Origin: Octopus sinensis
Taxonomy: Eukaryota
Length of the DNA: 64,000 nt
NCBI RefSeq assembly: GCF_006345805.1
Contig: NC_043000.1
Span: 101,494,001-101,558,000 of the forward strand
Direction: 5' to 3'
Shown one piece after another: positions 13,635-64,000 of this stretch. A program made the translations under genes and the position numbers. The notes beneath the pieces were generated by a model. The model had not been told where the DNA came from. It saw only the letters and a list, made by a program, of their open reading frames with translations, and did no database searches. Position 1 is the stretch's first letter; each line of letters begins with the position of its first letter.

Positions 13635-14420
13635 ATAATATCAACAGTAATGATAATAATATTAATAAAGAGCTAGAATCCTGTTATGTGTAAAATAAGT
13701 GTAAAACTAAAAATGTAATATATAAATGTAAAGTTACATCTGAGGGTAATGAATACTTTATCATCGTGGGGCATCATTAATTTTTAAGAGAAGACTGGCA
13801 AATCATTTGAGCTCATTTAGAGATAAAGATAAAAGATTCTGAACATATCTTAGCAAATTAATCTAGTTTATTAAGGACAGAAACAAAGATTATACTATCA
13901 ACTGGGAATTAATTAGTGCTGCAAAAACATACAGTCCTGGAACTAAAAAATGTGACCCATGTTTAAAAGAATTTTACCAGATTTTTAATCCAAGGGTAAT
14001 GTAATAAATTCTAGACAGGAACAAGCTTTGAGATGCTTGCACATGAGGAAATTCCCGTTTGCCCAGTATAAATGAATAACAAACATTTAAACAGTGGAAT
14101 GTTTTGAAATAATGGACTCTAAATGATTATCAAATCAAAACTTGAATTGAAGATTGTTCACGTCTAATTTAATGAACGACTCTACATGATACAATGCAGA
14201 GTAGATAAACAAAAAACTTTAAACACTTAAATCGAAAGATATTAAGTGCAGATCCTGAAGAAACTGCTCTGGTATTATAGTAGGGCTGCAATTCCAATGG
14301 TTACTGATCGGTGCAGTAGAAACATGTGTAGGTCTATGTAAAGCTGTATATATAAAAACAATTAAAAGTAATGCTATGCAACTTTGTATTAATCCTTATT
14401 ACTGTTATTGTTGATAATAT
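13635..14420 (+). mobile_element. Penelope-like element 3' remnant: GIY-YIG pseudogene plus 3' HHR
   Basis: Translates with stops and frameshifts as NKCKTKNVIYKCKVTSEGNEYF..VGAS..FKRRLANHLSSFRDKDKRF*TYLSKLI*FIKDRNKDYTINWELISAAKTYSPGTKKCDPCLKEF..INSRQEQALRCLHMRKF, ending about 14075. HHR at 14250. Confidence 0.85.
14250..14335 (+). ncRNA. Type I hammerhead ribozyme motif (PLE-associated)
   Basis: Stem I agauc/ggucu. Core CUGAAGA at 14255. Stem II acugc/gcagu around a long loop. GAAA at 14319. Palindromic ACAUGU at stem III. GUA cleavage triplet 14328-14330. Confidence 0.7.
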
Positions 14421-14639: not shown

Positions 14640-16860
14640 ACTACAATGTGAAGATCAGAGACATGAGGTGTTCAGGATTGAAAGGGGCTTTAAAGTTAAC
14701 CTAGCTTAGACAAGAGTGGTTGTTAGTAAGAAAGAAGATAAAACTTTCTTTCCATCAGGTAAATGGTCCTGCTCCATATGTAGGAAAGGAGTTGGAAGTA
14801 ATTTCATTTGCTGCACCCAGTGTAAACTATGGACACATAAGAGATGCAGTGGTATCACAGGTAAAAAGCACCCAGTCCACACTGTAAAGTGGTTGGTGTT
14901 TGGAAGGGCATCCAGCTGTAAAAACCTTGCCAAAACTGACCTTGCCTGTGTTTGTACCACGTAAAAAGCACTACTCACCTTGCCTGTACTTGTGCTGTGT
15001 AAAAAATACTCAGCCCACTCTGCTGAGTGGTTGGTGTTAGGAAGGGCATCCAGCTGTAAAAATCCTGCCAAAACAGGCACAGAAGTCCAGTGCAGGCTTC
15101 AGCCTGGCCGGCTCTTGTGGTATCTTTGCATGTGGCAGATGTACAGGATGATCTGAAAATATTGTTTCTAGAATAAGAATTGGGTGGAGGAAGTTCAGAG
15201 AGCTATTACCTCTGTTGGCAACAAAAGGACTTGCTCTCAGAGTGAAAGGTAGACTATATGATGCTTGTATATGAACGGCTATACTCCATGGTAGTGAGAC
15301 ATGGGTTCTGAATGCAGAAGACATGCATAGAGTGGAGAGAAATGAAGGTAGTATATTCTGATGGATGTGCAGCATCAGTGCACATGTATGAAAAATTTCA
15401 AATGTATTGAGAGAAAAGTTGTGCATAAGAGGAATCAAATGTACATGCAAGAAAGAACACTACATTGGTTTGGACATGTGATGTGTATGAATGAGGACAG
15501 CTGCATAAAGAAGTGCTAATCACTGACAGTGGATGGTACCTGTGGAAGAAGGAGACCCAGGAAGACAGGAGATGAAGTGGTAAGGACTGAACTCAGGAAG
15601 CTGGGCATCACTGAGGAAATGACAGTGGACTAAGATGTCTGGTGATATGATATTTTTGAGAAGACCAGCCCACATCAGCAAAAATGAGTTTCAGAAGTGG
15701 GTGTCACACCCACAATTAACAAGAAAACTTCTGACACACTCTACCACGACAAACCAGATTACATCTCAACATCTCTTCTCTTCTTCACATTTCTGCTTCA
15801 TGTACTATAATTACATGCCCCTCCCTAATCCTGTTCGCTTGCCCCCCCCCCCGACCTGGGTGTTCTACCTACACATATCAAGAAAACTTTTCCTTCACCC
15901 TACCCCAACAAACCAACCTACATCTCTTCTCTTTCTCATATTTTCCTTCTTCATACATTATGCCTAGCTCTCACTCCCCAATCTCATCCTCACACCCCTG
16001 TTTCTCTTTGTCATTGCTATCAGGTAGCCCCACCAACTCTGTATATACCCGTGTTTTTTCACCACTTATTCGCACTCTTTAATCACACTCTCTTTACAAT
16101 ATCCTATTATTTATATTATGGCATTTGAACCTCAAGGGTATGCCCTGGCACTTGTTACCATCTATATATCTCTCTCCCCTTACTCAACCATCTCGTTTAT
16201 ATTCTGATCCCAGTCCCTTGTGAGTATGCCACCATCTCTATCTTGCTGTCTCCCTCTCTCTCTCCTTCTCCTGCACTCCTCTCAGGTTAGGCAACCATGT
16301 ATTTTCTTTGCAGTAGCACACCTGTTTGTGTCTTCATTCCTGATTTTTCTTTCTTTGGCCAGGTAACCTTGTACTTCCTCTACATCAAGGTACCTATATC
16401 TGTCTCACTATAACCTTTTCACTATCACCTCCTCCAGTGCCACCTCCCACCTTAAATGTTTTTTTTTAATGTTTTGCAAGTACTTGGTGACCCTGTCAGT
16501 GTAGGTGCAACTTAAAAGCACCCAGTCCACACTGTAAAGTGGTTGGTGTTTGGAATGGCATCCAGCAGTAAAAACCTTGCCAAAACTGACCTTGCCTGTG
16601 TTTGTACCACGTAAAAAGCACTACTCACCTTGCCTGTACTTGTGCTGTGTAAAAAATACTCAGCCCACTCTGCTGAGTGGTTGGTGTTAGGAAGGGCATC
16701 CAGCTGTAAAAATCCTGCCAAAACAGGCACAGAAGTCCGGTGCAGGCTTCAGCCTGGCCAGCTCTTGTGGTATCATCCCACCCATGCTAGCATGGAAGAC
16801 AGATGTTAAATGATAATGATGATGATGATGATGATAATGATGATGATAATGATGATGATA
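14640..16860 (+). mobile_element. RTE-clade LINE, 5'-truncated and decayed (RT C-terminal region, 3' UTR, (GAT)n tail)
   Basis: KVNLA*TRVVV..GKWSCSICRKGVGSNFICCTQCKLWTHKRCSGITG, then RIRIGWRKFRELLPLL..KGRLYDACI*TAILHGSETW..WFGHVM..RRRPRKT. Ends in a (GAT)n tail at about 16810-16860. Confidence 0.9.
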
Positions 16861-37938: not shown

Positions 37939-38006
<68 letters not shown>

Positions 38007-38365
38007 CAACAACAAGAGCATTCAGTGAGCACAAACCTCCACCAAGGCAACACCAACATCCTCTCAATGATTAGCCAGAGATAGTTTTTTAGAATGGGAA
38101 TATCTGAAATAAACTCAACTGCTCTTATAAATGGGAATACTAAAAATGAACCTGACCACACTCAGAAATTAAGTAAAAAAACGGAAAAAATAATCCAGAA
38201 TCCTTGTCTGGTACTGGATCAATCTTAAAATCTAATCAGTTCATGCCAATCATGAGGCCAAACATCCCTGAACGTTTCATCCGAATCCATCCAGCGGTTC
38301 TTGATATATTTTGTCCTTGGGCAAACAAACACAATTGAAAATAGCTCCGCCTTTGCTAAGGTGGA

Positions 38366-38430
<65 letters not shown>

Positions 38431-38789
38431 CAACAACAAGAGCATTCAGTGAGCACAAACCTCCACCAAGGCAACACCAACATCCTCTCAATGATTAGCC
38501 AGAGATAGTTTTTTAGAATGGGAATATCTGAAATAAACTCAACTGCTCTTATAAATGGGAATACTAAAAATGAACCTGACCACACTCAGAAATTAAGTAA
38601 AAAAACGGAAAAAATAATCCAGAATCCTTGTCTGGTACTGGATCAATCTTAAAATCTAATCAGTTCATGCCAATCATGAGGCCAAACATCCCTGAACGTT
38701 TCATCCGAATCCATCCAGCGGTTCTTGATATATTTTGTCCTTGGGCAAACAAACACAATTGAAAATAGCTCCGCCTTTGCTAAGGTGGA

Positions 38790-38836
<47 letters not shown>
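37939..38836 (-). mobile_element. Two tandem, apparently identical 424-bp units of a Helentron/DINE-1-like (HINE) element separated by (TAA)n
   Basis: Period 424 (also seen in duplicated ORFs 37853/38277 and 38225/38649). Sub-terminal inverted repeat acctccacc / ggtggaggt, terminal hairpin ctccgcctttgctaaggtggag, second stem-loop-like gagcattcagtgagc. Confidence 0.7.
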
Positions 38837-38837
<1 letters not shown>

Positions 38838-50150: not shown

Positions 50151-51425
50151 TTAATTTGGCACTTGATTTAACCCTTCTATCTGGGTCTGGACACCTTTAC
50201 CTGAATACACTTTTATCACAAACATAAAGCTTAGGTTTCTGTTCCAAGAGTAACTTTCTCCTTTATTCTTACCTATCTTGAAAGAGCTAAAAGCTGTCAT
50301 TAGCACTGCCCTTTCTCTTCAGACTAAATCATTACAAATAAAAACAACAAAATTGTAAAAACTACCATTCTTCTCAATGTTTTATCACCTCATCTGTTAG
50401 GTCCAGTATTTTCAGATTCAAACACATTATTGTTTTATCCTTGGTCGTTCTTCGCTGCCATTGCTACATTCCATTATCAGCCCACAACACCTTCTCTTCT
50501 CTTATCAAGTGTCAACTACTTACATCTCCACAACAGCGCAACTAAATCTCCTCTACTCAACAGTAAATGTCATTAATGTACAGACATTACTTCAACTTAC
50601 TTTTATTGAACTCCACCTTTTATGTTAGCAAATAAAGTTTGTTTTGTATGCATATACATGCTTCTGGATTCAAGCTCAAAGCTCTCTACCTTGGGGAAAA
50701 TATCTTCTACTCTAGTCTTGGATTGACTTATACCTTGTGAGTGAAATTTTGTTGACAAAAACTGAACAGAGACCCACTGTTTGTGTGTATGTGTGTATTG
50801 TCCATAATGTATCTACATCATCATCATAATATGCATGGTTTGGGCAGAATTTGTTGAATTTGGTTTATACAGCTGGATGCCTTTCCTGCTGCCAACTCTC
50901 ATCTGTTTTTAAGTAAGGTAATATTCTCCCACAACCTATGTTTTCCACAGAAGAAAGGAAACAAATGATGTTCATTTACAATCGACTTGCTAAATTAACA
51001 CAAGAACATGAACAAATACATACACACACTAGTACACACACACACACACACTCACACACACTCACACACACTCACACACACACATACACATGATAAGCAT
51101 TTAGTTTACTAAATCCACTTACAGGGTTTTGGTCAGCCTAGGGCTCTGGTAGAAAACAGCTGCCCGAAGTAGTGTACAGTGGAATTGAACCTGAAAGCAC
51201 ATGGCTCAGAAGCAAATTTCATAAGCCACACACCCATGTCTGAAGCTTTACATACATACAAGCATACATAGGTCCATACATGCATGCATTGCTGGCCTTG
51301 TACCTATATATGTATGTGTGTGTGAGGCATATGTGCATATATATGTATGTGTGCGTTCGTATATGTAAGTATTTGTATGTTGTATTTATATATATATATA
51401 TGTATTTATGTTTCTCTCTGTGTAT

Positions 51426-51484
51426 ATTCCACTGATGAGGCAAAGCATTCCTAAATGCAAAGTCAGAAATCCGGGATCTGGAAT
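51426..51484 (+). ncRNA. Type I hammerhead ribozyme, near-intact
   Basis: Stem I auucca/uggaau. CUGAUGA at 51432. Stem II ggc/guc plus gcauu/aaugc. GAAA at 51466. Stem III AUC/GAU. AUC cleavage triplet 51476-51478. One extra A before GAAA. Confidence 0.8.
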
Positions 51485-51620
51485 TATCCAGTAATTTTTT
51501 ACTAGTTTTATCTTGTCTTTTTGTCTTCTCTCCATGTTGCTATATGAACACTTAAAGTGGTTTTAGAGTTAGATCATGGCTGCTATTTTCAGCATGGCAG
51601 TATCTCGTAGATACCCTAAG

Positions 51621-51664
<44 letters not shown>

Positions 51665-52063: not shown

Positions 52064-52440
52064 AAATCACTATGTGGTTGCATGGCATGCTAAAAGTAAC
52101 AGCTAAATCTCTTTCAACTCACACAAAGAGAGAAGGGCAAGACTGATCTAGAGCTGAACAACAATAACTATTACAAAAATCTCTATGTGGTTGCACGGCT
52201 TACTAAAACTAACAGCTAAATCTCCTTCAACTCACACAAAGAGAGAAGGTTAAGACTGATCTAGAGCTGAACAACAGTAACTATAGCAAAAATCTCTATG
52301 TGGTTGCACGGCTTGCTAAAAATAACAGCTAAATCTTCTTCAACTCACACAAAGAGAAAATTATTAGTTCTTGCAGTCACTTTCAACATTGCTCTGTTTG
52401 GTCAAGAATGATCTGGAGCTGAACAGCAATATCTATTGCA
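52064..52440 (+). repeat. About 3 copies of a 113-bp tandem repeat derived from a dispersed short element
   Basis: ctatgtggttgca at 52070, 52183 and 52296. Related dispersed copies at about 1565 and 24400. Confidence 0.85.
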
Positions 52441-56130: not shown

Positions 56131-58060
56131 TATATATATAATATATATATATATATGTATGTGTGTTTGTATGAATATATATATATATATATGTATGTGT
56201 GTTTGTATGAATATATATATATATATATATTTACACACACACATATGCATACACAGACATGTATATGGGCTTCTTTCCATTACTGTATGCCATTCCACTT
56301 CCAAAGCTTTGGTCAGCCAAGGCCTCCATCACAAAACACCTGTCGAAACTGCCAATGAAAAGTGATTAATTTCTAAGACCACCAAATGGGGAAATATACA
56401 GATAGATAGTTAGATTAGTGATATCATATTTAATACAGTGAAACATGAAGGTACTAATAAGAAATAATTATGTGCTGCGCAACACACAGTGATATGCAGA
56501 TAGATAGATAAATTAATAATGATGTATTTAATATAGGGAAACATCAAAATAATAACAAAAATAATTATGTTGTGAATTGGCTACTTTGATAGATATACTG
56601 ATTCATAACTAATCTAATGTTAACCCTGACACATTTTCACTGTCATCACCTCTGTCTTACTGTATGTCTGTCTGTCTCTCTGTCTCTGTCTGTCTCTCTC
56701 TCTCTCCACTCTCTTTTCCAACTGAGATAGCCATGTATCTCCTCTATAGTATCTCTCCTTCTCTCATACTTTCACCTCTCATCACCTTACACAAAACCAC
56801 CTCTCTCAGTTGAGGGATCTTGTTTTATAAGTTACTTGGTGACCTCACTGGTGCTGGTGCCACTTAAAAAGCACCCATTATACTCTGTAAAGTGGCTGGT
56901 GTTAAGAAGGGCATTCAGTTGTAGAAATCATCCCAAAGCAGATAGTAATGCTTGATACAGTCCTCTGGATCACCAGCTCCTGTCAAACTATCCTCTCTAT
57001 GCCAGCATAGAACACATGCTTAAAATAGTGATGGTGCTGATGATGATATATTTAATGTAAGAGTGTTTACACATTCAATTTAGCACATTTAATGTTAATG
57101 AGAGCTGATCATGTAGTGAGATAGAAAAATATACAAGACGTAAAGTTAGTGATAGCATAATTAATACAGGGAAACTACAAATTGCTAATAAGAAATAATT
57201 ATATGGTGAGATGACTAAATCGAAAAATAAACAGATAAATAGTCAAGTTAGTATTTTTATACAAGAAACATCAAAATGTTAATGAGAAATGATAACGAGT
57301 GACAAAAAAAAAAAAGAAAATTATAAAAAAATAACTTTCTCAGTCACTGACTTGTTATTTACAGGTTTTCAATAAATGTATGAGACAACCCTTGGATATT
57401 TTTCTATCTTATTCTGACCTCATCAGCAAAATATAATTTTCACCATATGTAATCAAGTAGTAATGAGATAATTTCTTAGTTTGTGTTTCTCAAACACTGC
57501 CCTGCAGTGCATTAGTGTGCCAAAGATTTTTGAAATATAATTTAGAATGCAGGCTCAGCTGTTGTTAATAAGTCTCTTTTCCAACCATATAGTTTGGGTC
57601 CAGTCTCTGTGCATGACATCTTGGGTAAGTAACTTCTATTATAGCCCCAGGCTGCCCCAAATCTTGTAGGTGGATTTTGAAGTGAAAACCAATCATGTTA
57701 TAGTCATGAGTGTCACTGCCATATAAGTGATGTCATTAATTTCGAGTCTTCCTTGAGAACATATATAGCCATAGGCAGATTTATCTCACTTGCTAACAGG
57801 AAAGGATAATAGATCTTATAAAATCTGCCTCAATGAATTCCATCTGACCCATAGAAGCATGAGAAAGTGGATGTTAAAATGATGAGAATGATAAGGACGT
57901 TGATGAGTTTAAAGCTTCAGAAAATCAAAGCTAATGCCCGAGCGTCTTAAACATTGAGTTATTCTTGATGCTCTTATATACAAGTATTAAGGATTAACAC
58001 TTAACATCCATTTTCCATGCTGGCATTGGCTGGATGGCTTGGTAGAAACTGGCAAGGCCA

Positions 58061-59353: not shown

Positions 59354-60523
59354 CCACAGCTGTAAATAATGTACATGTTTATAGTTAAGGTAGTGTTAAC
59401 ATATATAAGGAGAGAATCAAAACAAAAATAGATAATTATGTTGCAAGGGCAACATCAATATATGTCAGTGACTCATCCTTTTTACACTTTTCTAACAAGT
59501 AAAGGAGATAACTCTGAATATGTTTCACTTTATTCTAACCTCATCAGTGAAATGTAGTCTTTATTGGTATTGTCTAAAGGAGTGATTAGTGAATTACTAA
59601 GTAATTGTAAAAAACTGTACATTTCCTGTCGATGAATAATAGAACCTCTTCAAAAATTAATAATTTGGAAAAGCTCTCAACTTGAAAAATAATAAGTCAA
59701 TTAGTTTTAGCATATTTAATGAAAGAGAGCATTGAAAAGCTGACAAGAGCTAATTGTGTAGGCAAGGAAATATTATACTGATTAATTAACAAATTGATAA
59801 ACATGGTAAAGGCTAAGTTTCACTAATGAGAACAAAATTAGATGAAAATTGGTCTGAAATGCCTTGTATTTAACAGAAAGTTATAGATTAATGCACTTTA
59901 TATTATATAGGCCATGTAAACATTGACTAAACTACAATCATATGTATTTGCTTACTTCTGCAAGTACAGTGAAGGTTATACTTTGCTGATGTGGTCAGAA
60001 TAAGTTCAAAACGTATTCCTTTATTTGATTCAGTCATTGAGCTGCACTGTTAATAGGTTTAGTTGATCAAGTCAACTCCAGTACTTATTGTTTGGTATTT
60101 ATCTTACTGATCTCTTTTTGTCAAACCATTAAGTTATAGGGGTGACACAAACAAACCAACACTAGTGAGGAGAAAGAAATACAAACATATACATGCAGAT
60201 ACACTCACACATGAATATAAATATATAATGGGATTCAACACAGTTTCTGTCTGAGGCTTGAGTACAAGATGCTTGCCCAAAGTACCATGCTGTGAGATTC
60301 AATTCAAAACCATGTGGCCACAAAGTGAACACACAGCCATCCTGCATCTATATCTGGAGTTCTTTTTTCAGTACTTGGCAGAAATATGAAAATAATACTG
60401 GTTTCAAATTGTGGCATGAGGTCAGCAATTTCGAAGGAGGTGGGGAGATAGTCAAATTCATCGATCCCTGTACTTAGTACTGGTACTTAGTTTATCAATG
60501 TGAAAAGGATGAGAGGTAGAGCC

Positions 60524-63358: not shown

Positions 63359-64000
63359 ATTGGGTCATTCCATAAATAATGCTGTTATTTTATACTCCTT
63401 TTATTTTTCAAAATTAAGATAAACAAAGTTCTTTTTTAATCTAAAATATACTTTCCTTCATTTTCTACAATGCTCTTCCATCAATCTGGTAGACTTGCAA
63501 GGCTCCTCTTCCAAAATTCACTTGTCCATGATGAAAAATACTCTCCAGTACTGTTCTGAGCTCATCTACAGAATTCATGTTTTTTCCATCCAAATGATTT
63601 TGATGACTGTGGAATAAATGATTAATCAGATGGAACTAATCTGGTGAATATGGTGGCTGAGTGGATCATCGTTTCCCATTCAAACTGCTCCAGCCTTTGG
63701 AATGTCATCCTTTCTGTATGTGGCTGAGCAATATCATGAAGGAAGAACACCTTTTGCCTTGGAACCAAAGATGGTCGTTTTTCTTCTAATGCTGACGTAA
63801 GCCATTCAAGCTGCTTGCAGTAAATCTCTTTTGTTGTTGTTTGGTTTGGGTTTAAAAGTTCAAAGAGGACTAAACCTTTCATATCTCACCAAACAGAAAA
63901 CAACACTTTTAACCTGGACTGCTGGTGTTTCTCCTTTCCCCACCCACTGTCTTCAATGCTTGACATTTTTATAGAGAACCCATTTCTCATCACCAGTCAC
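63359..64000 (-). pseudogene. mariner (DD34D-type) transposase pseudogene and TIR, running off the window
   Basis: Minus: VTGDEKWVLYKN..VW*DMKGLVLFELL..LEEKRPSLV..FFLHDIAQPH..PSD..HLF..QNHLDGK..FWKRSLASLPD*WKSIVENEGKYILD* (stop about 63436). TIR-like ttgggtcattccataaataatg abuts a (TA)n tract. Confidence 0.92.

What the first reader, a model, noticed from the sequence alone, without database searches (positions are those of the whole stretch)
51426..51484. Near-intact stand-alone hammerhead ribozyme between microsatellites
Seen: all conserved core bases (CUGAUGA, GAAA, AUC), a 6-bp stem I, a bipartite stem II (ggc/guc, AAA/AAA internal loop, gcauu/aaugc) and a short stem III. It lies in a roughly 200-bp unit bounded by TA/TG repeats, with no PLE ORF next to it. 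It has a non-canonical extra A before GAAA, as does the 14250 motif. Known: type-I HHRs occur in Penelope pLTRs and retrozymes. Inference: this may be an active self-cleaving RNA that would cut any plus-strand host transcript.
Basis: partly seen in the sequence, partly recalled or inferred. Interest (0 to 1): 0.75.

Follow-up and report, generated by a model that had tools for sequence, protein, structure and literature searches.

The report
Lopsided hammerhead in a Penelope-type retrozyme
This is one cut-short copy of a scattered, protein-free 489-base repeat whose hammerhead motif carries a family-wide unpaired A beside the catalytic core; it was likely pasted in by a Penelope-type retrotransposon enzyme and is predicted to cut RNA only weakly and only as a pair, so it would rarely cut a host transcript.

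Summary
The hammerhead is real but not stand-alone. It lies in a 5'-truncated copy (51323-51627) of a 489-nt ORF-less repeat with hundreds of exact-match copies. The family shows Penelope-like insertion anatomy: (TA)n targets, two fixed 3' ends, partial tandems and inverted arms (41 of 43 pairs use different ends). The extra A before GAAA is inherited, not damage: no copy lacks it. A sister subfamily has an A opposite it, echoing the mismatch at the base of helix II in published Hydra-clade hammerheads; the window's lineage likely lost the 5' partner. Core bases are fixed across subfamilies while helix I covaries (C-G 56, U-A 23). Helix III is predicted to form only between two molecules, and no partner lies in the window, so cutting host RNA is unlikely. 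The 14250 A is a copy-level change in an A-U pair, not the same feature. Cleavage is untested; copy 5' ends do not pile up at the cut site. The scan noted this kind of element before, on other DNA of this genome. New here: the one-sided junction.

The parts
51323..51627 (+). 5'-truncated copy of the 489-nt non-coding repeat (unit positions 187-486), single arm ending at the family's first fixed 3' end
   Evidence: 285/300 identical to the sample majority, no inverted arm
51418..51491 (+). Type I hammerhead motif including extended helix I
   Evidence: (96.2% of cells paired over 83 copies)
51432..51438 (+). Core strand C3-A9 (CUGAUGA); N7 varies U/C/A across the family
51439..51464 (+). Bipartite helix II (3 bp, 3x3 A loop, 5 bp, 4-nt loop); middle pair is G-C or G.U across copies
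   Evidence: G.U 50, G-C 26 of 83
51465..51465 (+). Unpaired A between C11.1 and G12, fixed in the family; likely the left-over 3' half of an A.A mismatch kept in the sister subfamily
   Evidence: 0 matches without it; 132 of 132 copies have a base here: A 127, G 4, C 1
51466..51478 (+). GAAA, 9-nt odd palindrome forming helix III (predicted dimer interface), U16.1 and C17; predicted cut 51478/51479
   Evidence: same helix III layout in 20 of 26 Hydra-clade rows of File S2, PMC8557442
51600..51614 (+). Short hairpin about 12 nt before the fixed 3' end; candidate signal for the borrowed reverse transcriptase (inferred)
   Evidence: fold; end site
51622..51654 (.). (TA)n tract, the insertion target
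   Evidence: 148 of 188 family arms have TA repeats within 20 nt of their 3' end

Best explanation
The motif is a type I hammerhead inside a 5'-truncated copy of a 489-nt non-coding repeat family that was likely reverse-transcribed into (TA)n tracts by a borrowed Penelope-like (likely Hydra-clade) enzyme, and it is predicted to cut only slowly and only when two hammerheads pair through helix III. Shown: the unit repeats head to tail, ends at two fixed sites, is randomly shortened at its 5' side, often comes as two inverted arms, and has no ORF. Shown: the A before GAAA is in every copy and a sister subfamily has an A facing it. Inferred: the ancestor had a Hydra-type 1x1 mismatch at the base of helix II (here A.A); the window's lineage deleted the 5' A, leaving one bulged A, and kept amplifying. 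Inferred: multimeric transcripts of tandem copies self-cleave at low rate as dimers, and religated circles or uncut multimers are the templates, primed about 10-15 nt behind one of two hairpins. Inferred: the solo window copy has no partner and would seldom cut a host RNA.
For: Family: 298, 533, 272 and 337 exact matches to four 21-24-nt patterns with 0 in reversed controls; 2436 first-look candidates. Anatomy in a sample chosen by anchors outside the ribozyme: 188 terminal arms, 101 end at site A, 86 at site B, 1 elsewhere; 41 of 43 inverted pairs use different ends (one locus counted twice); 148 of 188 run into TA repeats; all 14 arms that pass the unit start continue into the previous unit, not into an ORF. 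Arms of one insertion share lineage alleles (16/16, 18/19, 24/27, 25/27, 25/27 at five sites) and differ by 6.8% against 10.0% for random pairs. This matches the PLE anatomy and (TA)n preference in PMC8557442. Selection on the fold: helix I C-G 56 / U-A 23 of 83; the common variants inside the motif are all unpaired, wobble or compensatory, while 45% of random single changes would be compatible; the 12 core bases and the extra A are the same in all three subfamily majorities, across a branch of 0.14. Extra A: 0 matches without it; 65 of 65 informative unbiased copies (64 A, 1 G; 3 further rows were alignment artefacts); no deletion at 5% or more in four runs of three organism labels. A.A sister form: 153 exact matches, 30 of 30 aligned keep both As; the only form in 3 of 3 contigs of organism C. 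Hydra-type traits: 15 of 26 Hydra rows have a U.U or U.C mismatch at that place and 20 of 26 have the odd 9-nt helix III. A mismatch there is compatible with activity in the axolotl retrozyme, better as a dimer (PMC7229834).
Against: No cleavage data. No pile-up of copy 5' ends at the cut site: 1 of 188 at unit 338-340, and 83 of 89 arms that reach it run through. The excess just 3' of it (32/121 vs 11/89, p 0.015) is matched by another bin (23/163 at 391-400), and arms of a pair are not independent. The hammerhead fold of this copy lies 4.3 kcal/mol above its lowest-energy fold. Core invariance alone is weak: about 2 changes would be expected in 12 positions at the rate seen outside the motif (my estimate). 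The stem I compensation is one or two events, not 23. No autonomous partner was found among 30 RT loci and 70 endonuclease loci, so the Hydra assignment rests on likeness. Circle versus linear multimer was not resolved. The direction of the A loss rests on a midpoint-rooted tree, one other organism and the published Hydra pattern.
Confidence: 0.62

Rival explanations
1. Same mobile element, but the hammerhead is vestigial: the A.A mismatch and then the lone bulged A broke the G12.A9 stack, and the family spread from uncut tandem transcripts without any self-cleavage.
For: Templates were mostly intact across the cut site (83 of 89) with no pile-up. The base of helix II is the most conserved pair apart from A15.1-U16.1, and the tested natural insertions named in PMC3088659 are elsewhere. 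Naiad PLEs proliferate without canonical hammerheads (PMC8557442). The extra A also allows a competing 5-bp helix with the core strand (probability 0.17 in this copy).
Against: Lineage-level changes inside the motif are all structure-compatible, including a compensatory pair in helix I that arose after the A loss, while 24 positions differ among subfamily majorities in the 135 nt behind the motif. The dimer palindrome is kept.
Confidence: 0.27
2. One reading: an efficient monomeric ribozyme that cuts plus-strand host transcripts passing through this locus.
For: All 12 core bases are intact, helix I can extend to 12 bp, the copy is nearly pristine (end branch 0.0047), and invertebrate retrozyme hammerheads often cleave well as monomers (PMC7229834).
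Against: Helix III pairing 0.01-0.02 and helix I 0.21-0.24 in the monomer ensemble; non-canonical junction; no partner in the window; no host gene shown.
Confidence: 0.06
3. The copies are 3' fragments (pLTRs) of an autonomous Hydra-clade element whose ORF was not sampled.
For: Most copies are 5'-truncated, the motif has Hydra-type traits, and only part of the family was fetched.
Against: All 14 arms that pass the unit start re-enter the unit. An RT fragment hit only 1 of 147 family loci, antisense and beside a 50-nt piece of the motif. An endonuclease fragment hit 3 loci, each on the strand opposite the anchor arm (not followed further).
Confidence: 0.05

Closest known systems
Metazoan non-LTR retrozymes (PMC7229834, passages and section 15 read; bioRxiv 10.64898/2026.07.22.740005, parts 1-2 of 5 read)
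   Same: ORF-less head-to-tail unit with one type I hammerhead, low GC (31%), stable predicted circular fold (z -3.9 to -6.2 for 4 natural units), weak palindromic helix III, dispersed monomer derivatives, proposed PLE origin.
   Different: Unit is 489 nt (170-400 nt RNAs in PMC7229834; 51-972 bp in the preprint); mostly truncated arms, not long arrays; circular RNA and cleavage not shown; one-sided extra A.
Hammerheads of Hydra-clade Penelope-like elements (PMC8557442, passages and File S1/S2 part read)
   Same: (TA)n targeting, partial tandems, inverted 5'-truncated arms, a tail at one end, odd 9-nt helix III palindrome, non-paired base of helix II.
   Different: No ORF; tail is about 100 nt against 30-40; mismatch is A.A (sister subfamily) or a lone 3' A (window lineage), whereas File S2 shows U.U or U.C in Hydra rows, and none of its 34 rows has an extra base on the 3' side only.
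Minimal PLE hammerheads (PMC4209133, parts 1-2 of 4 read)
   Same: Type I, palindromic helix III, predicted dimer use, low expected activity.
   Different: Their conserved extra base lies between 9 and 10.1 (5' side) with G10.1-C11.1 adjoining G12; here it lies between 11.1 and 12.

Membership tests
Type I hammerhead ribozyme | Core C3-A9, G12-A15.1, U16.1, H17 | tested here: met
Type I hammerhead ribozyme | Three helices around the core, supported by covariation | tested here: met
   96.2% paired, one compensatory pair, two wobble pairs; helix III only predicted as a dimer
Type I hammerhead ribozyme | Pair 10.1-11.1 directly adjoining A9 and G12 | tested here: not met
   extra A at 51465 in all copies; Rfam gives no hammerhead match. 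It is a variant, not a consensus member.
Type I hammerhead ribozyme | Site-specific self-cleavage | not testable with these tools
   indirect test on copy 5' ends inconclusive
Type I hammerhead ribozyme | Helix I / helix II tertiary contact | not tested
   a bulge 6 bp up helix I and the A-rich loop of helix II lie at plausible distances (inference only)
Non-LTR retrozyme | Non-coding head-to-tail unit with one type I hammerhead per unit | tested here: met
   two-hammerhead tandems exist (for example L038); the window copy itself is a truncated single unit
Non-LTR retrozyme | Expressed as linear and circular monomer RNA | not testable with these tools
   only contigs of runs guessed to be RNA were available
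Non-autonomous Penelope-like element | 5' truncation, partial tandems, inverted arm, tail at one end, microsatellite target | tested here: met
Non-autonomous Penelope-like element | 3' similarity to an autonomous partner | tested here: inconclusive
   none found in 30 RT loci and 70 endonuclease loci; small sample of over 12,000 and 23,000 candidates
Hydra-clade PLE (autonomous) | Single ORF with RT and C-terminal GIY-YIG endonuclease | tested here: not met
   no ORF in the unit or in sense upstream of it

The most novel reading that the evidence does not exclude
A hammerhead subtype with a lone extra base between helix II and the general base G12 is catalytically active as a dimer. It arose by loss of one half of a Hydra-type mismatch, stayed under structural selection through a large expansion, has an independent parallel in a second family of this genome (extra C, 37 of 37 aligned rows), and is invisible to Rfam and to descriptors that require 11.1 to adjoin G12, so such ribozymes would be undercounted in animal genomes.
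Probability: 0.4. Interest if true: 0.55.

Novelty: new variant of a known kind. Interest (0 to 1): 0.33.

Why it matters
The element class is known and this genome is full of hammerhead relics, so the locus itself is ordinary. The junction is the useful part: three natural subfamilies give a ready series (A.A mismatch, lone bulged A with C-G or U-A in helix I) to ask how much distortion next to G12 a hammerhead tolerates, and whether Penelope-mobilised RNAs need cleavage at all, which PMC8557442 calls unclear. If active, search descriptors need a 3'-side insertion.

Tried and rejected
Rfam at E<=10: no hammerhead among the 150 listed of 201 window hits or in the local scan. Extra A as CpG decay of a G: rejected, the mirror product TG is absent from the first 100 of 298 listed matches. 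Extra A as private damage: rejected. Parallel with 14250: rejected. Neptune-like RT fragment at L054 as partner: none of the 29 other loci of that family shares the unit. Endonuclease-bearing elements as partner: only neighbouring insertions and one weak tail-like hit (E 0.005) in 70 loci. Helix II C/U variant tied to arm type, which would point to a linear dimer master: no (p 0.28). Other registers at the base of helix II are 3.0 and 6.5 kcal/mol worse than the bulged A. A covariance model found no second copy in the window; it was not run on the whole genome, so distant sister families may be missed. Sequencing runs: no RNA holder listed on record; contigs of five runs guessed to be RNA hold family pieces but cannot show strand, ends or level, so they were not used for expression. 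Precedent for a 3'-only extra base: none seen in six searches or in the passages read; figures were not visible, and Lunse et al. on PLE hammerhead variants was not held, so a precedent may exist there.

Full report
Observation. The motif is at the stated place: helix I 51426-31 with 51479-84, core CUGAUGA 51432-38, two-part helix II 51439-64, one extra A at 51465, GAAA 51466-69, a 3-bp helix III and C17 at 51478. A full type I descriptor gives 2 hits in the window and 0 in 20 shuffles. The bare core pattern and the isolated fold are not significant alone, and Rfam lists no hammerhead at E<=10.

It is not stand-alone. A DNA search of the window's genome gave 2436 first-look candidates, and the 40 scored include full-length matches at 92-95% identity. 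Four exact patterns give 298, 533, 272 and 337 matches with 0 in reversed controls; at 5-6% divergence of copies from their subfamily majority this means roughly one to a few thousand arms (my estimate). Aligning loci gives a 489-nt head-to-tail unit without an ORF. The window copy covers unit positions 187-486 at 51323-51627, so the TA/TG-rich stretch on its left belongs to the element. That the animal is likely an octopus I take from earlier scan notes; I did not test it.

Insertion anatomy. To avoid bias I sampled by two anchors behind the ribozyme (the first 100 listed of 533 and of 272 matches; 166 loci fetched). Of 188 terminal arms, 101 end near unit 490, 86 about 100 nt into the next unit, 1 elsewhere; 148 run into TA repeats. 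In 41 of 43 inverted pairs the two arms use different ends (one locus is counted twice). 5' ends are scattered, and all 14 arms that pass the unit start re-enter the previous unit. The different-ends test was prompted by earlier scan notes on other families. Both ends lie about 10-15 nt behind a hairpin. Arms of one insertion share lineage alleles and are closer than random pairs (6.8% vs 10.0%), so they come from one template or one master. This is the Penelope-like anatomy in PMC8557442, and (TA)n is the listed target of nearly all Hydra families there. No autonomous partner turned up in 100 PLE loci.

The extra A. It is inherited: a pattern with one or two bases in place of three finds 0 matches; 65 of 65 informative unbiased copies have a base there, as do 132 of 132 longer copies; no deletion reaches 5% in four runs of three organism labels. 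Contigs of another organism showed an added A after A9 (3 of 3). That form has 153 exact matches in this genome, and 30 of 30 aligned copies keep both As. It is a separate clade (100/100, branch 0.14, midpoint root, bootstrap not fully settled). File S2 of PMC8557442 shows a U.U or U.C mismatch at this place in 15 of 26 Hydra rows and the same odd 9-nt helix III in 20 of 26, but none of its 34 rows has a 3'-only extra base. The simplest history is a Hydra-type mismatch, here A.A, that lost its 5' half in the window's lineage, which then became at least as numerous (337 vs 153 matches to patterns of 23 and 21 letters). A second family with no similarity in the motif region also has an extra base before GAAA in 37 of 37 rows (rows were top hits to a query with that junction); there it is a C that can slide and leave G10.1-C11.1 canonical. 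Most other hammerheads in the fetched loci lack it. The 14250 motif is a different case: its family pairs A with U there (25 of 32 rows) and the window's A is a substitution shared by 4 rows.

Selection on the fold. Over 83 copies 96.2% of cells pair; one helix I pair is C-G in 56 and U-A in 23, two others alternate with G.U (0 of 500 shuffles reach the covariation score, but relatedness inflates this and the change is one or two events). Common variants inside the motif fall on N7, loops, wobble or compensatory sites; 45% of random single changes would be compatible, so six in a row has p about 0.008. The 12 core bases and the extra A are identical in the three subfamily majorities, while 24 positions differ in the 135 nt behind the motif. 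The compensatory change lies inside the lineage that lacks the 5' A, which argues that the fold still mattered after the loss.

Activity. Not shown. Helix III costs +2.4 kcal/mol as a hairpin and gains -9.9 as a duplex between two molecules; in the monomer ensemble it pairs with probability 0.01-0.02. PLE-type hammerheads cut weakly and as dimers in PMC4209133; the axolotl motif with a U.U mismatch at the base of helix II cuts 22% in an hour as a monomer and better as a dimer (PMC7229834). PMC3088659 names active insertions at 6a and 13a and a U.U mismatch, not an 11.1/12 insertion, in the section read. As an indirect test I mapped copy 5' ends: 83 of 89 arms run through the cut site and 1 ends at it; an excess in the 22 nt 3' of it (32/121 vs 11/89, p 0.015) could reflect a cut subset, stalling at helix I or joining at AT-rich sequence, and a bin far from the ribozyme is as high. 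Templates were thus mostly uncut or religated. I put measurable dimer cleavage at a little better than even.

Host transcripts. The window holds one family copy, the 14250 helix III cannot pair with it, and Pfam finds only transposon-like fragments above cut-off among 150 of 216 ORFs scanned. Efficient cutting of a host RNA is unlikely and no such RNA is shown.

Papers seen: PMC8557442 passages and supplement part 2 of 59; PMC7229834 passages and section 15; PMC4209133 parts 1-2 of 4; PMC3088659 passages and section 8; bioRxiv 10.64898/2026.07.22.740005 parts 1-2 of 5 (24, 25; its supplements are closed and may list related families); PMC11300833 and PMC6765202 passages. Lunse et al. was seen only as a citation. 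Hammerhead numbering and the role of the G12.A9 stack are established knowledge.

Verdict. A real hammerhead variant in an ordinary truncated copy of a non-autonomous Penelope-type retrozyme. It works like a PLE-type dimeric hammerhead but fails the consensus junction. New variant of a known kind; interest modest.

Noticed in passing
window 14251-14335 (+), with ORF remnant about 13744-14100: Type I hammerhead with long helix II behind a broken GIY-YIG-like endonuclease end; family of at least 561 candidates; the window copy has U11.1 changed to A.
   Followed up: yes
L139:1190-1290, L064, L208-L237: Second hammerhead family (2961 candidates) with an extra C on the 3' side of helix II, two-part helix II, odd 9-nt helix III, TA targets and inverted arms; L216 has a PLE RT fragment in sense about 480 nt upstream.
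   Followed up: partly
window 57401-57426 (-) and 59523-59547 (-): Two degenerate hammerhead-like cores that resemble each other, probably relics of another family.
   Followed up: no
L054:1479-1528: Only the 50-nt core of the family motif is present, fused antisense to the 3' end of a PLE RT-endonuclease fragment.
   Followed up: partly
L151, L164, L195: Copies lacking one G in loop III, which makes helix III a perfect 8-nt palindrome while the extra A stays.
   Followed up: no
window 51432-51436 with 51462-51466: The extra A allows a 5-bp helix between the core strand and the 3' strand of helix II (probability 0.17 here, fully Watson-Crick in the commonest unbiased variant, 31 of 68 copies with N7 = C and U in helix II); a possible off state.
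   Followed up: partly
window 37944-38837: Exact 424-bp duplication (100% identity, 2.1 copies) between AAT tracts; recent duplication or assembly artefact.
   Followed up: no
window 52064-52357: 113-bp tandem repeat, 2.6 copies, 92% matches, 440 bp downstream of the element.
   Followed up: no
window 63625-63885 (-) and 14710-14961 (+): Mariner-type transposase fragment (PF01359) and a PHD-finger match (PF00628), likely from mobile elements.
   Followed up: no
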